NCBI GenBank assembly: GCA_038869515.1
Contig: JAWCQZ010000003.1
Coordinates: forward strand, 126,884-190,883
DNA from: Halobacteria archaeon
GTDB taxonomy: Archaea > Halobacteriota > Syntropharchaeia > JACQPP01
DNA: 64,000 bases
Direction: 5' to 3'
The notes under the pieces were generated by a model, which searched no databases, was not told where the DNA came from, and worked only from the letters and a program-made list of their open reading frames with translations. Below are positions 21,691 to 61,860 of this stretch, in pieces. Position 1 is the first letter of the stretch; every line of letters begins with the position of its first letter. The position numbers and the translations under genes were made by a program.

Positions 21691-22893
21691 CTATGGGCGC
21701 TCCCGCCGGAGTTCCATGTAGCGCACTTGTTGCCGCTCCACGCGGAAACCCTCTCGTCCCGTCGGCGCGGGCTTCTCTCCCGCGACGCCTTCGCGTCGCG
21801 TGGCAGTATCGGAGGCCCGCGCCGGTCCTTTCGGGAACCCTCTCGTCTCGTCGGCAACGGACGGCGTCGTCCCGGCGGTCTGCAGGGGGCCCGTGACTTC
21901 GAGATGCGCAAACACCAGCCGCTTTCTCACCGACTGCGCCAGCCGCACCGCCCGCGCCATCTCCTCCAACGTGAAAACGTGGTCCGGCGCCAGCACGTGG
22001 ACCAGATAATCGGAGTGCCTCGCGGGCCACTTCGAGTAGACCCGGAAGTGGGCGCCGAACTTGAAGCCGGTGCGGGCGACGAGCCCGCGGTCGCGCAAGT
22101 CGCGGTAAACGGCAAGCCGAGTCTGGAAATCGGCCCCCCCGGCGCCTCGTTCCGCGACGCGCCGGCGCTGGAACCAACCCCGCTTCGGAGGAGTCGCGAT
22201 TCCGTTCCCGGCGGGCAACTTCAGCACCCCCCGCCCCGCGAGGTAGGCCGCCTCGAGGCGCGAGAGCCAGAGGCGCCCCTCCTCGACCCGGCCGAAGAAG
22301 GCGGCCTCGCACGCCTCCGCGGCAGCCGCGTGGGAGACCAGGACGCGGCTCCCCGCCGGGACCCCCTCAGACGGGGGAATCTCGGCGGGTTTCCCTTCGG
22401 GCAGGTGGGGCCGGCGCGCCTCGTAGAAGGTGGCGTCCCCCTCGGAGTCCACCATCCCCAGGAGGAGCCTCTTGTGGACGTTGGTGGCCTCGGTGAGGAC
22501 TCCCGCCAGCTCCCCCAGCGCCACAGGCTCGCGCTCCGACAGGGCCCAGACGTAGGCCTCCGACGGCCCCCCGCCCGGCCCCGAGCCCCGCTTGTAGAGC
22601 CGGAAGTCCCGGGGCCCCGCCGCCAGCCGGTAGCCCCGGAGGCGCAGGCTGCGGTAGACCGGATAGCGCACTTCGAACCGGGGCTGGAGGGCCGCCGCAG
22701 CCCTGATGAGAGCGGGGTAGTCGAGGGGCTTCCCGTCCCTGCGGACCTCGAGCCGCCCCCGCTCGCAGAGGTGGGCCGCCTCCTCGGGGCCGAGGCGGAC
22801 CCTGCCGCCGGCGGGCTCCCCGGCGTTGGGCGGGGCCTCCTCGGGCTCCGCGAGGACGGCCCCGTCCACAAGTTCCGCCATAGGAAAGCCCAT
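21691..22893 (-). CDS. endA: tRNA-splicing endonuclease EndA (tandem-repeat type) with low-complexity C-terminal tail
   Basis: 400 aa from ATG 22893; C-terminal catalytic unit TGFKFGAHFRVY…HSDYLVHV, N-terminal degenerate repeat (…YRLYKRG…); track start 23472 is an extension. Confidence 0.75.
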   Translation of the reverse strand: MGFPMAELVDGAVLAEPEEAPPNAGEPAGGRVRLGPEEAAHLCERGRLEVRRDGKPLDYPALIRAAAALQPRFEVRYPVYRSLRLRGYRLAAGPRDFRLYKRGSGPGGGPSEAYVWALSEREPVALGELAGVLTEATNVHKRLLLGMVDSEGDATFYEARRPHLPEGKPAEIPPSEGVPAGSRVLVSHAAAAEACEAAFFGRVEEGRLWLSRLEAAYLAGRGVLKLPAGNGIATPPKRGWFQRRRVAERGAGGADFQTRLAVYRDLRDRGLVARTGFKFGAHFRVYSKWPARHSDYLVHVLAPDHVFTLEEMARAVRLAQSVRKRLVFAHLEVTGPLQTAGTTPSVADETRGFPKGPARASDTATRREGVAGEKPAPTGREGFRVERQQVRYMELRRERP

Positions 22894-31911: not shown

Positions 31912-32526
31912 CTATCCGTGCGGGGATTTTTGCAGGAGCCCGATGGGGAACGGCAGCGGCTTCGGTCCCGGCAGGAGACCGGCCTCGGCCCTCCGCATCA
32001 CCAGGGCGTCGACTCCGTCGCTGTAGTATCCGGGGAGACGGCCCGCCGGTTCGAAGCCGAACCGCCGGTAGAGGGCCTGGGCGGGCCCGTTGTCCATCCG
32101 CACCTCCAGGCGCACAGCGGAAATCCCCTCGGCCCGGTAGAGGTCGAGGGCGCGCTGGAGGAGCGCGGCGGCCACCCCCCGCTTCCGGTGGGCGGGGTCC
32201 ACTGCGAGAGAGAAGATGCGGCCTTCCAACAACCGCCCCGAACTCTCGCGTTCCGAAGCGAAATGGGGTTGAGGCGAGGCCCGCGACCCGTCCCGTTCAC
32301 ATCTCGAAACGCGAGGGTCGCGGGCCGAGAGGGGCGGTTGGTCCTCCGCCAGGGCCGCCACGATGTAGCCGACCACGAGGCCGTCCGCCTCGGCCACGTA
32401 GAAGCCGTCGCTGGCCATCTCGTAGAGTTGGATGAAGAGGGGGGCGTAGTCCTCCGCGAACGCGGCCCGCTCGATGGCGACGACCCGCGAGAAGTCCTCA
32501 GGACGGAACAGCCGCACCCGGAGCAT
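31912..32526 (-). CDS. GNAT-family N-acetyltransferase (RimI-like) with about 40-aa in-frame insertion
   Basis: 204 aa; GNAT motifs (…AVDPAHRKRGVAAALL…YRRFGF…) interrupted by a low-complexity insert encoded by a palindromic DNA segment. Confidence 0.75.
   Translation of the reverse strand: MLRVRLFRPEDFSRVVAIERAAFAEDYAPLFIQLYEMASDGFYVAEADGLVVGYIVAALAEDQPPLSARDPRVSRCERDGSRASPQPHFASERESSGRLLEGRIFSLAVDPAHRKRGVAAALLQRALDLYRAEGISAVRLEVRMDNGPAQALYRRFGFEPAGRLPGYYSDGVDALVMRRAEAGLLPGPKPLPFPIGLLQKSPHG
32245..32326. repeat. Nested inverted repeat inside the GNAT coding sequence
   Basis: GGCCCGCGACCC (32278-32289) and GGGTCGCGGGCC (32315-32326) are perfect reverse complements; outer pair CTCGCGTT (32245-32252) / AACGCGAG (32308-32315). 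Confidence 0.5.
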
Positions 32527-45937: not shown

Positions 45938-46678
45938 ATGAACCTCCGCTTCCTCACCCGCAGCGCTGTCCTCCCCCTCTCCATCGCCATCCTCGCCGCC
46001 TTCGCAGCGCAGGTCGCGTCGGATAGGTTCACCATCGCGGGGATGTTCATCCCGCAACTGGCGCTCGCGGAACCCTGGCGCTGGGTCACCTCCGCGTTCC
46101 TGCACGGCGGGTTCTACCACCTCTTCTTCAACCTCTTCGCCCTCTACCTCTTCGGCGTGGTGCTGGAGAACCAGATCGGCTCCCGCAAGGTGCTGGCGCT
46201 TTTCTTCGGGGGCGCCATCGCGGGGGACGTGGGCTACCTGGCGACGGGCGGGACCGCCCCCGCCCTGGGGGCCAGCGGGGCGGTCTACACCCTCATGGGG
46301 GCCCTGGCGGTCCTCCAGCCCCGCCTGCCCCTCTCCTTCTTCTTCGGCCCCCCTCTGCCCCTCATCGCCTGGGTGTTCATCTGGGCCGCCCTCGACGTCT
46401 TCCGCGTATTCACCCCCTCCACCATCGCCGGCGGCGCCCACCTGGGAGGCCTCGCCCTCGGCCTCTGGGCCGGGTTCTACTTCCGGCGGCCCCGGCAGCC
46501 GCGCCCCGCCGCCGAGGAGCGGGCCATCGTAGCCCCCAGGATGCGGGTGAAGGCTCCGCCCCGGGAGGGGGCGCGGTTCGAGTGCCGGAGGTGCGGCTAC
46601 GTCGCCACTCACTTCTCCGAAATCGAGTCCCCCAGGTGCCCCGGGTGCGGGGAGCCGACCGTCTGGCGTCCACTCTGA
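45938..46678 (+). CDS. Rhomboid-family intramembrane serine protease with C-terminal zinc ribbon
   Basis: 246 aa; GASGAVY catalytic-Ser motif, downstream His in a TM helix; C-terminal CxxC…CxxC. Confidence 0.8.
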   Translation: MNLRFLTRSAVLPLSIAILAAFAAQVASDRFTIAGMFIPQLALAEPWRWVTSAFLHGGFYHLFFNLFALYLFGVVLENQIGSRKVLALFFGGAIAGDVGYLATGGTAPALGASGAVYTLMGALAVLQPRLPLSFFFGPPLPLIAWVFIWAALDVFRVFTPSTIAGGAHLGGLALGLWAGFYFRRPRQPRPAAEERAIVAPRMRVKAPPREGARFECRRCGYVATHFSEIESPRCPGCGEPTVWRPL

Positions 46679-61733: not shown

Positions 61734-61818
61734 CGCCGGAGAGGGGACTTGAACCCCCGATTCCCTTGCGGGATAGCAGTTTTCAAGACTGCCGCAATAG
61801 CCGCTATGCGACTCCGGC
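61734..61818 (-). tRNA. tRNA-Ser (anticodon UGA)
   Basis: Reverse complement folds as GCCGGAG acceptor stem, anticodon loop CUUGAAA (anticodon TGA), long variable arm, T-arm GGGGGTTCAAGTCCCCT, 3' CTCCGGC plus discriminator G; no encoded CCA. Confidence 0.8.
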
Positions 61819-61822
61819 TTAT

Positions 61823-61860
61823 TTTTTCGAGAGCGCGGACGTCCGCCCTCTCGAAAAAAT
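61823..61860. repeat. 38-bp perfect palindrome between the mptA stop and the tRNA-Ser 5' end
   Basis: TTTTTTCGAGAG-CGCGGACGTCCGCC-CTCTCGAAAAAA; possible bidirectional terminator and/or tRNA promoter context. Confidence 0.45.

What the first reader, a model, noticed from the sequence alone, without database searches (positions are those of the whole stretch)
31912..32526. In-frame insertion inside a GNAT acetyltransferase gene encoded by a perfect nested palindrome
The GNAT ORF carries an approximately 40-residue low-complexity insert (…AEDQPPLSARDPRVSRCERDGSRASPQPHFASERESSGRLLE…) where the family normally has a short loop. The encoding DNA (32245-32326) contains 12-bp perfect inverted repeats GGCCCGCGACCC / GGGTCGCGGGCC and an outer 8-bp pair. 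This looks like a miniature palindromic element inserted into a coding region while preserving the frame, or an RNA structure embedded in the mRNA.
Basis: seen in the sequence. Interest (0 to 1): 0.5.

Follow-up and report, generated by a model that had tools for sequence, protein, structure and literature searches.

The report
Hairpin repeat inserted in-frame in acetyltransferase
A 111-base piece of repeated, hairpin-forming "selfish" DNA (two copies nested inside each other) has landed inside an archaeal N-terminal acetyltransferase gene without breaking the reading frame. It probably just adds a floppy 37-residue surface loop, an archaeal parallel to the palindromic elements known in Rickettsia genes.

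Summary
The GNAT gene (31912-32526, minus strand; RimI/Ard1-type) carries exactly 111 nt (32230-32340; 37 codons, residues 63-99) that four close orthologues lack.

Its "outer 8-bp pair" is interleaved with the 12-bp hairpin, not nested around it.

The insert belongs to a repeat family:
- Its left 44 nt are 91% identical to a ~57-nt hairpin at an unrelated locus in a sister genome. That locus is empty in two other relatives.
- Two more ~55-nt copies occur in another metagenome.
- The inner 12-bp hairpin is a diverged copy of the same family in the opposite orientation.

AlphaFold puts the insert as a low-confidence coil at the tip of a β-hairpin in an otherwise confident GNAT fold. Host-gene dN/dS is ~0.1. 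Insert GC3 is 0.68 against 0.90 for the host gene.

No splicing motif (bulge-helix-bulge, BHB) fits the boundaries, and nothing matches in Rfam.

Best reading: a MITE/RPE-like palindromic element inserted in frame and translated as a tolerated loop. Copy number, target rule and mobilising enzyme remain unknown. This is a new member of a known kind, of moderate interest.

The parts
31912..32526 (-). Host gene: RimI/Ard1-type GNAT N-terminal acetyltransferase, 204 aa. It overlaps the 3' end of the upstream HflX gene by 29 nt.
   Evidence: Pfam Acetyltransf_1. NCBIfam TIGR01575 above cut-off. Best PDB relatives are archaeal Ard1 4PV6, 4LX9 and 2X7B. The exact protein is in NCBI as a GNAT of a 'Halobacteria archaeon' MAG.
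32230..32340 (.). The 111-nt (37-codon) insertion, encoding residues 63-99. It is absent from orthologues.
   Evidence: DNA alignment with L001 and L002. Four empty sites GAGGAC-CGG/CGC/GGA-GAG/GAA. GC3 is 0.68 against 0.90 in the rest of the gene. AlphaFold gives coil with pLDDT below 50 over residues ~61-100.
32230..32239 (.). Left terminal inverted repeat CAACCGCCCC of the outer copy.
   Evidence: Perfect 10-bp inverted repeat with 32331-32340 (I4). The core AACCGCCC is shared by all family copies.
32331..32340 (.). Right terminal inverted repeat GGGGCGGTTG of the outer copy.
   Evidence: I4.
32231..32273 (+). Left and apical part of the outer hairpin-repeat copy (family orientation = window + strand).
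   Evidence: 91% identical over 44 nt to L001:63-106, E=6e-8. Covariance-model hit of 41.5 bits, E=2.4e-8.
32277..32327 (-). Inner, diverged copy of the same hairpin family in the opposite orientation. It replaces the 'TTC' of the outer copy's 3' stem.
   Evidence: Full-length covariance-model match of 25.4 bits, E=3e-4. It shares the core CUCGCGUU..CGA..GAAC.GGG and has two-sided stem changes that keep pairing. The best unrelated hairpin in the window scores 19 bits and lies in a rhomboid-like coding region.
32278..32289 (.). Left arm of the perfect 12-bp hairpin (stem of the inner copy).
   Evidence: I2. There are only 5 such perfect 12-bp inverted-repeat pairs in 64 kb.
32315..32326 (.). 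Right arm of the perfect 12-bp hairpin.
   Evidence: I2.
32245..32252 (.).
   Evidence: Invariant in all family copies. Its reverse complement at 32308-32315 is the same core in the inverted inner copy.
32308..32315 (.). AACGCGAG, the same core in the inner (inverted) copy.

Best explanation
The 111 nt at 32230-32340 are non-coding, palindromic repeat DNA of a small hairpin-element family (unit ~55 nt, consensus AACCGCCCCGAACTC-25 nt-GAGTTCGGGGCGGTT). This DNA inserted into the RimI/Ard1-type acetyltransferase gene of this archaeal lineage.

The insert is a composite. An outer copy in + orientation carries, inside its 3' stem, a second, diverged copy in - orientation.

The total is 3n and the host frame has no stop codon, so the element is read through and translated. 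It adds a 37-residue Arg/Ser/Pro/Gly-rich disordered loop at the tip of the β3-β4 hairpin, a position whose length varies among archaeal Ard1 enzymes. The fold and the acetyl-CoA motif stay intact.

Shown:
- the insertion and its boundaries
- family membership
- presence/absence at two loci
- loop position in the model
- purifying selection on the host gene

Inferred:
- that the element moves by transposition, MITE-like, with an unknown enzyme acting in trans
- that it is translated rather than removed
- that the enzyme still works
For: 1. **Empty sites.** Four orthologues at 84-88% aa identity lack exactly 37 residues / 111 nt.
2. **Terminal repeat.** A perfect 10-bp terminal inverted repeat lies on the indel boundaries.
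3. **Family copies elsewhere.**
   - L001:62-119 is 91% identical to the left 44 nt. It folds at -39 kcal/mol, z=-5.8.
   - That copy abuts a stop codon at a site that is empty in L002 and in this genome.
   - L039:576-630 and L045:4-58 are full 54-55-nt hairpins with 15-bp perfect stems.
4. **Inner hairpin.** It is a full-length, oppositely oriented match to the family model.
5. **Conservation.** Element copies are ~90% identical although host genomes differ by dS ~0.7-0.8.
6. **Composition.** Insert GC3 is 0.68 against 0.90 for the host gene, so the insert did not evolve as coding sequence.
7. **Structure model.** AlphaFold gives strands 50-60 and 101-109 at pLDDT >90 with a coil of pLDDT <50 between them. 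PDB alignments are split exactly at the insert, where the Thermoplasma and Sulfolobus Ard1 chains have gaps of about 4 and 12 residues.
8. **Selection.** dN/dS is 0.09-0.13 for pairs including this gene, the same as between insert-free orthologues at 0.11.
9. **Open frames.** 4 of 6 frames of the insert are open, so an in-frame, stop-free outcome is unremarkable once selection removes frameshifts.
10. **Fixed in the population.** The insert is identical in three assemblies.
Against: - Only five copies at four loci were found, and none elsewhere in about 81 kb of this genome. High copy number, a usual hallmark of MITEs, is not shown.
- No consistent target-site duplication: TTA/TTA at L001 only, none at the GNAT site.
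- No autonomous partner with matching ends was identified. An IS5-like transposase sits beside the L039 copy, but a link is unproven.
- The match of the inner copy is modest (25 bits against noise up to 19 bits, rough E-values).
- Translation of the insert and activity of the enzyme are inferred, not observed.
- dN/dS averages over both lineages, so it cannot exclude recent inactivation.
Confidence: 0.7

Rival explanations
1. The insert is removed from the mRNA. It would act as an archaeal bulge-helix-bulge (BHB) intron cut by the tRNA-splicing endonuclease (EndA, encoded at 21691-22881 in this window) and re-ligated, so the protein has the orthologue length.
For: The organism is an archaeon with a two-domain EndA gene about 9.6 kb away. 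The insert is strongly structured. The inner hairpin can be drawn as a canonical hBHBh' motif: 11-bp outer helix, 4-bp central helix, 3-nt bulges CGU/ACG and a 4-bp inner helix. Shuffled loops reach this geometry only about 0.2% of the time.
Against: - No BHB places its cut sites at the insertion boundaries. The ends of the insert pair with each other, like terminal repeats, rather than exon with intron.
- The one good BHB-like conformer would excise 20 nt and so cause a frameshift.
- That conformer is 9 kcal/mol less stable than the minimum-free-energy fold.
- It is not conserved in the other family copies, whose conserved pairs support the plain hairpin.
- The only frame-preserving candidate (117 nt, 32349-32233) relies on four G·U pairs and competes with the 10-bp terminal stem.
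- An intron would not need to be 3n and stop-free.
Confidence: 0.04
2. The hairpin family is a host cis-element, such as a 3'-end, terminator or mRNA-stabilising hairpin, or a small RNA, rather than selfish DNA. The copy in the GNAT gene would be kept because the mRNA structure regulates translation or decay of the hflX-GNAT transcript.
For: In L001 the hairpin starts directly at the stop codon of a 69-aa gene and is followed by a T-run. In L039 and L045 a stop triplet (TGA) abuts one end. Stems are maintained by two-sided changes between diverged copies. Copies are more conserved than neutral DNA.
Against: - No Rfam family matches, even at E<=10.
- Copies sit at non-orthologous places and come and go between close relatives.
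- One copy is nested inside another, which is typical of mobile repeats.
- No promoter or terminator context exists inside the GNAT ORF.
- Palindromy is equally explained by DNA-level requirements of transposition.
Confidence: 0.12
3. Same origin, different consequence. The insertion has disabled the acetyltransferase, through misfolding or lost activity, and the gene is a young pseudogene that merely still looks intact.
For: 37 extra residues sit between two core β-strands. A -69 kcal/mol structure lies inside the ORF. Pairwise dN/dS cannot resolve a recent change.
Against: - The ORF is fully open and motif A (RKRGVAAALL) is intact.
- All family-invariant residues are kept.
- The insert lies in a loop that naturally varies in length among Ard1 homologues.
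- AlphaFold keeps the core at pLDDT >90.
- The allele is fixed in three samples.
- No second rimI/Ard1 gene was looked for, so dispensability is untested.
Confidence: 0.12
4. The insert is not mobile DNA. It would be a lineage-specific loop expansion generated locally, for example by template-switch or hairpin-primed replication errors that create palindromes.
For: No target-site duplication at the GNAT site. No second copy in about 81 kb of the same genome. The target shows weak similarity to the element ends: GACCG..GGGGCG against AACCG..GGGGCGG.
Against: Near-identical hairpins exist at unrelated loci in other assemblies. No donor sequence is present nearby. The inner and outer copies differ by about 40%, so they are not a recent local inverted duplication.
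Confidence: 0.03

Closest known systems
Rickettsia palindromic elements (RPEs; Ogata et al. 2000, 2002, as summarised in PMC10969869)
   Same: Short palindromic repeat DNA inserted inside protein-coding genes in frame and without stops, translated into an extra peptide compatible with the protein's fold. Here the insert is a low-confidence coil at a β-hairpin tip. The element family also occurs outside genes.
   Different: The host is an archaeon and there is no sequence relationship. The unit is much shorter (~55 nt against ~100-150 nt). Only one intragenic case was found: a six-frame peptide search of 5.8 billion proteins returned only the gene itself, whereas RPEs sit in dozens of genes. 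The copy here is a nested dimer.
Prokaryotic MITEs, including the archaeal ones reported for Sulfolobus, Halobacterium and Haloquadratum (review PMC10969869)
   Same: Small, with no coding capacity of its own. Perfect terminal inverted repeats. Folds into a long hairpin. Dispersed copies. Presence/absence between close relatives. Nesting of copies. Contig breaks next to copies (L001, L045), as expected of repeats.
   Different: Target-site duplication is not demonstrable and no parent insertion sequence with the same termini was found. The copy number seen so far is very low. At ~55 nt it is at the very small end for MITEs.
REP/BIME elements (GTAG- or CGTC-tagged REPs mobilised by RAYT transposases; PMC3733652)
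   Same: G+C-rich extragenic hairpins often placed right after stop codons, as in L001. They can occur as inverted pairs or clusters and show no target-site duplication.
   Different: REPs are 20-40 nt with a conserved GTAG/CGTC tetranucleotide at one end. This family has neither tag and is ~55 nt. RAYT association was not examined. REPs are by definition extragenic.
Archaeal BHB introns in protein-coding genes (cbf5 of Crenarchaeota; recalled from memory, not checked here)
   Same: An archaeal gene interrupted by a short, strongly structured segment that orthologues lack.
   Different: No BHB at the boundaries. The segment is 3n and open in frame. It belongs to a dispersed repeat family.
Mobile G+C-rich palindromic clusters in yeast mitochondrial genes, and 'byp' translational-bypass elements (recalled from memory, not checked here)
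   Same: Short G+C-rich hairpin-forming mobile elements that land inside coding sequence and are tolerated.
   Different: The byp elements are skipped by the ribosome and need matching take-off and landing codons. Here there is no stop or matching codon pair, so no bypass is needed.

Membership tests
MITE (miniature inverted-repeat transposable element) | Short element without its own transposase gene | tested here: met
   55-nt unit and 111-nt composite. The reading frames through it are only host read-through.
MITE (miniature inverted-repeat transposable element) | Terminal inverted repeats | tested here: met
   Perfect 10 bp in the window. Perfect 15 bp in L039 and L045.
MITE (miniature inverted-repeat transposable element) | Insertion polymorphism: filled and empty orthologous sites | tested here: met
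   The GNAT site is filled here and empty in 4 orthologues. The L001 site is filled, and empty in L002 and L003.
MITE (miniature inverted-repeat transposable element) | Many dispersed copies within a genome | tested here: inconclusive
   Five copies at four loci in at least three assemblies, two of them in metagenome FWPU01. Only the GNAT locus was found in about 81 kb of this genome. Whole genomes could not be scanned.
MITE (miniature inverted-repeat transposable element) | Target-site duplication | tested here: inconclusive
   TTA/TTA flanks the L001 copy. No direct repeat is seen at the GNAT, L039 or L045 copies.
MITE (miniature inverted-repeat transposable element) | Autonomous insertion sequence with matching termini | not tested
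   An IS5-like DDE transposase ORF lies beside the L039 copy. Its ends could not be defined on a 1.7-kb contig. The window was not scanned for transposase genes.
Rickettsia palindromic element (RPE)-type protein-coding palindrome | Palindromic repeat inserted in frame in an ORF, encoded peptide compatible with the fold | tested here: met
   111 nt = 37 codons with no stop. Coil at a β-hairpin tip with the core at pLDDT >90.
Rickettsia palindromic element (RPE)-type protein-coding palindrome | The same element (conserved peptide) recurring in many unrelated genes | tested here: not met
   Six-frame peptide queries found only the gene itself for the long form. For the short form the only hit was a read-through ORF over the L039 copy at E=0.13. 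Sensitivity for 18-aa peptides is poor.
Rickettsia palindromic element (RPE)-type protein-coding palindrome | Sequence homology to RPE families / Rickettsia host | tested here: not met
   The host is an archaeal MAG. Direct comparison with RPE sequences was not run.
REP/BIME | 20-40-nt imperfect palindrome with terminal GTAG or CGTC tag | tested here: not met
   The unit is ~55 nt and its ends are (A)AACCGCCCC / GGGGCGGTT(T), with no GTAG or CGTC tag. Definition taken from PMC3733652 (abstract).
REP/BIME | Association with a RAYT (Y1 transposase) gene | not tested
   Whole genome not available. The window ORFs were not scanned exhaustively.
Archaeal BHB intron | hBHBh' (or relaxed) motif with the two 3-nt bulges at the exon-intron junctions | tested here: not met
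   The scan of 32150-32420 on the mRNA strand found no strong motif at the boundaries. The best motif is internal.
Archaeal BHB intron | Excision restores the reading frame and the orthologue-like junction | tested here: not met
   The best BHB-like conformer removes 20 nt (frameshift) and is 9 kcal/mol above the minimum-free-energy fold.
RimI/Ard1 N-terminal acetyltransferase (host gene) | GNAT fold with motif A (R/Q-x-x-G-x-G/A) and a family HMM score above cut-off | tested here: met
   RKRGVA motif is present. TIGR01575 scores 87.5 against a cut-off of 86.4, and the orthologue scores 103. AlphaFold gives a GNAT topology. PDB Ard1 hits reach E=1.9e-17.

The most novel reading that the evidence does not exclude
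The inner hairpin carried by the element is a genuine bulge-helix-bulge substrate: 11-bp helix, 3-nt bulge, 4-bp helix, 3-nt bulge, 4-bp helix. On this reading a mobile palindromic element has delivered a splicing-endonuclease site into an mRNA. EndA would then cut the acetyltransferase transcript, or excise 20 nt from it, giving element-borne post-transcriptional control or knock-down of an archaeal protein-coding gene. A milder version is that this is the founding example of an archaeal, self-nesting hairpin-element family that colonises coding sequence as RPEs do in Rickettsia.
Probability: 0.04. Interest if true: 0.8.

Novelty: new member of a known kind. Interest (0 to 1): 0.35.

Why it matters
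In-frame colonisation of genes by palindromic selfish DNA is best documented in Rickettsia and a few bacteria. Archaeal MITE-like elements are poorly catalogued.

This locus gives a clean filled-versus-empty example in an archaeon of the Halobacteriota type. It defines a previously unannotated ~55-nt hairpin repeat family that also nests into itself. It shows how such DNA can instantly create a 37-residue disordered loop in what is probably a housekeeping N-terminal acetyltransferase without visible loss of constraint.

Practically, it warns annotators that 'low-complexity inserts' in MAG proteins can be repeat DNA. It also supplies a covariance model and consensus for finding more copies.

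It does not open a new mechanism unless the splicing-motif resemblance of the inner hairpin turns out to be functional.

Tried and rejected
- **Other copies in the window.** blastn-short, a 20-mer search with 3 mismatches, and a covariance-model scan with filters off found none. The next-best hits, such as 46250-46287, are chance G+C hairpins in coding sequence, here apparently a rhomboid GxSG-type motif (read by eye, not tested).
- **Extending the genome.** About 8.5 kb on each side was fetched via flanking genes, with no further copy.
- **GTDB genome scan** with the terminal-repeat pattern gave 26 hits. All are bacterial, none is 111 nt long and none resembles the element internally, so they are chance matches.
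- **Metagenome scan** gave 15 hits, of which 2 are true copies and 13 are chance half-sites.
- **Other collections.** Viral contigs (two patterns) and PLSDB plasmids returned nothing.
- **Six-frame peptide searches**, looking for the element inside other proteins, found only the gene itself and a read-through ORF over the L039 copy.
- **Rfam** at gathering threshold and at E<=10 gave only meaningless miRNA-hairpin matches.
- **BHB intron** rejected.
- **Other readings rejected by reasoning:**
  - Intein: the insert is only 37 aa, and Pfam matched only GNAT-type families on this protein.
  - Ribosomal bypass: there is no stop codon and no matching take-off/landing codons.
  - C/D-box sRNA: the L001 copy contains a CTGA (D-box-like) tetranucleotide, but no C box was seen in the copies inspected by eye.
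- **Target-site rule.** None could be derived from four sites.
- **Literature search** for the accession numbers found nothing.

Full report
**What is in the sequence**

The minus-strand ORF 31912-32526 encodes a 204-aa GNAT protein. It matches Pfam Acetyltransf_1 at E=2.6e-19. It passes the NCBIfam rimI equivalog cut-off, 87.5 against 86.4 bits. Its best solved relatives are archaeal Ard1 N-terminal acetyltransferases (4PV6, 4LX9, 2X7B).

The exact protein is deposited as a GNAT of a 'Halobacteria archaeon' MAG, GCA_038869275.1. The surrounding genes are archaeal: a two-domain tRNA-splicing endonuclease, F420 genes and MC1. The window is 69% G+C.

The same repeat scan also shows a perfect 10-bp pair, CAACCGCCCC (32230-32239) and GGGGCGGTTG (32331-32340), that encloses everything.

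Its right arm lies inside the loop of the 12-bp hairpin, so it is interleaved with that hairpin, not nested around it.

**The insertion is real and exactly bounded**

Of 61 homologues, the four closest (P0002-P0005, 84-88% identical outside the insert) are 167-169 aa. That is 37 residues shorter than the window protein.

Their DNA reads GAG GAC CGG/CGC/GGA GAG/GAA GGG. The window reads GAG GAC [CAA CCG ... CGG TTG] TTG GAA GGC. The extra DNA is 111 nt, 32230-32340, covering residues 63-99. Its ends are the 10-bp inverted repeat.

A 12-bp perfect repeat nested in a 10-bp perfect repeat occurred anywhere in only 3 of 100 Markov-simulated 64-kb windows. Coincidence with an orthologue-defined indel makes chance negligible.

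The same 111 nt is identical in an NCBI contig and in Logan assemblies of two sequencing runs.

**It belongs to a repeat family**

A blastn of the insert against every locus fetched found a match in L001, the contig that carries an insert-free orthologue. Positions 63-106 there are 91% identical to the left 44 nt of the insert, and the terminal repeat recurs at 104-118.

That element (L001:62-119) is a near-perfect 57-nt hairpin, -39 kcal/mol with z=-5.8. It abuts the stop codon of a 69-aa gene. The same intergenic site is empty in L002 and in the window genome: CCGG-TCA-GAGG against CCGG-TT[TA AACCGCCC...GGGCGGTT T]TA-GAGG.

A metagenome scan with the shared left-end pattern returned 15 loci. 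Two are full copies, L039:576-630 and L045:4-58, both from FWPU01. Each is 54-55 nt with a perfect 15-bp stem, AACCGCCCCGAACTC/GAGTTCGGGGCGGTT. The other 13 are single half-sites expected by chance.

A covariance model was built from the four copies. It scores the true copies at 83-87 bits and the truncated outer copy in the window at 41.5 bits. It also finds the inner 12-bp hairpin (32327-32277, minus strand) as a full-length match of 25.4 bits, E about 3e-4.

That inner match keeps the core CUCGCGUU..CGA..GAAC.GGG. Its stem changes on both sides so that pairing is preserved. The strongest unrelated hairpin in the window scores 19 bits and lies in a coding region that looks like a rhomboid GxSG motif.

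The 'nested palindrome' is therefore two nested, oppositely oriented copies of one hairpin family. The inner copy replaces the TTC of the outer copy's 3' stem.

**Evidence on what the insert does to the gene**

- The insert has GC3 0.68 against 0.90 for the rest of the gene, so it did not evolve as coding sequence.
- Four of its six frames are open. A stop-free, 3n insertion is therefore an unremarkable survivor of selection against frameshifts.
- Host-gene dN/dS is 0.09-0.13 against the orthologues, the same as between two insert-free orthologues at 0.11.
- Motif A and all family-invariant residues are intact.
- AlphaFold (11-sequence alignment, mean pLDDT 76.5) gives a normal GNAT topology. 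β-strands 50-60 and 101-109 have pLDDT above 90. Residues 61-100 form an unstructured coil with pLDDT below 50.
- PDB alignments break exactly there. The Thermoplasma and Sulfolobus Ard1 chains have gaps of about 4 and 12 residues at this loop, so the loop already varies in length in the family.

The best-supported mechanism is read-through translation of selfish hairpin DNA into a tolerated, disordered surface loop.

**Rivals**

*Splicing.* A scan for the archaeal bulge-helix-bulge (BHB) geometry on the mRNA strand found nothing convincing at the boundaries.
- The ends of the insert pair with each other rather than exon with intron.
- The inner hairpin can be drawn as a textbook hBHBh' motif, which shuffled loops reach only about 0.2% of the time.
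- That conformer is 9 kcal/mol above the minimum-free-energy fold and would remove 20 nt, causing a frameshift.
- It is also not conserved in the other copies.
- I keep this as a low-probability but interesting reading.

*Host cis-element.* A role as a 3'-end hairpin is suggested by the stop-codon-adjacent copies. It is weakened by the copies coming and going between relatives, by the nesting, and by the absence of any Rfam match.

*Local origin.* A local, non-mobile origin is contradicted by the dispersed copies.

*Inactivation.* Whether the enzyme still works is untested.

**Limits**

I could not scan whole genomes.
It also showed that the MAG is not in that collection.
- No other copy lies in the 64-kb window or in about 17 kb of added flank.
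- Viral contigs and plasmids hold none.
- Peptide searches cannot see 18-aa copies.

Copy number, target rule (TTA/TTA at one site only) and the mobilising enzyme therefore remain open. An IS5-like transposase ORF sits beside the L039 copy, which is a lead only.

**Comparison with known systems and verdict**

Functionally the closest analogue is the Rickettsia palindromic element, a palindromic repeat that inserts in frame and is translated (review PMC10969869). Structurally the element is a very small MITE-like or REP-like hairpin.

It meets the MITE criteria of small size, terminal repeats and insertion polymorphism. It does not yet meet those of copy number, target duplication or a partner insertion sequence. 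It fails the REP tag criterion and the BHB-intron criteria.

I file it as a new member of a known kind, an in-frame palindromic repeat insertion, here in an archaeon. Interest is moderate to low, at 0.35.

Noticed in passing
L049:14717-17507 (NCBI JAWCRK010000003.1), about 2-5 kb beyond window position 1: The same MAG carries a three-gene copper membrane monooxygenase-like cluster (Pfam Monooxygenase_B, AMO, AmoC) next to an AurF/di-iron-like gene. The genome also has MTD, FpoO and F420 genes. An amo/pmo-type cluster in a Halobacteriota-type archaeon looks unusual.
   Followed up: no
window 32278-32326, mRNA (minus) strand: The inner hairpin can adopt a canonical bulge-helix-bulge geometry: 11-bp helix, bulges CGU and ACG, 4-bp central helix CUCG/CGGG, 4-bp inner helix. 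Shuffled loops reach this about 0.2% of the time. It is 9 kcal/mol above the minimum-free-energy fold, would excise 20 nt, and is not conserved in other copies.
   Followed up: partly
L039:256-1404 (FWPU01064007.1): An IS5-like DDE transposase ORF (DUF772 + DDE_Tnp_1) ends right next to a hairpin-element copy (576-630), and the ORF reads through the copy. It could be a partner or just a neighbour. What looks like the C-terminal end of a DNA-methylase gene lies just beyond, judged by eye only.
   Followed up: partly
window 61821-61860: A 24-nt, 96% complementary palindrome (ATTTTTTCGAGAGCGCGGACGTCC / GGACGTCCGCCCTCTCGAAAAAAT) lies directly adjacent to the tRNA-Ser(TGA) gene at 61734-61818.
   Followed up: no
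window 32498-32526; also L001:4700-4728 and L002:8001-8029: The GNAT start overlaps the end of the upstream HflX-type GTPase gene by 29 nt. The overlap and gene order (TatD - HflX - GNAT - 121-aa protein) are conserved in the relatives, which suggests a translationally coupled operon.
   Followed up: no
window 21691-22881 (-): A two-domain (tandem tRNA_int_endo) splicing endonuclease gene of 396 aa lies 9.6 kb from the insert. This dimeric form usually demands a strict bulge-helix-bulge motif (from memory).
   Followed up: partly
L001:1-120 and L045:1-60: Two of the short hairpin copies lie within about 60 nt of a contig end. This is the pattern expected if the repeat breaks short-read assemblies, and hints at more copies than could be seen.
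   Followed up: no
window 46250-46287: A hairpin with the stem ACCGCCCC/GGGGCGGT resembles the element's terminal stem, but it lies in a coding region reading ...GASGAVYTLMG..., which looks like a rhomboid GxSG motif (by eye). It is a false positive of the covariance model at 19 bits.
   Followed up: yes
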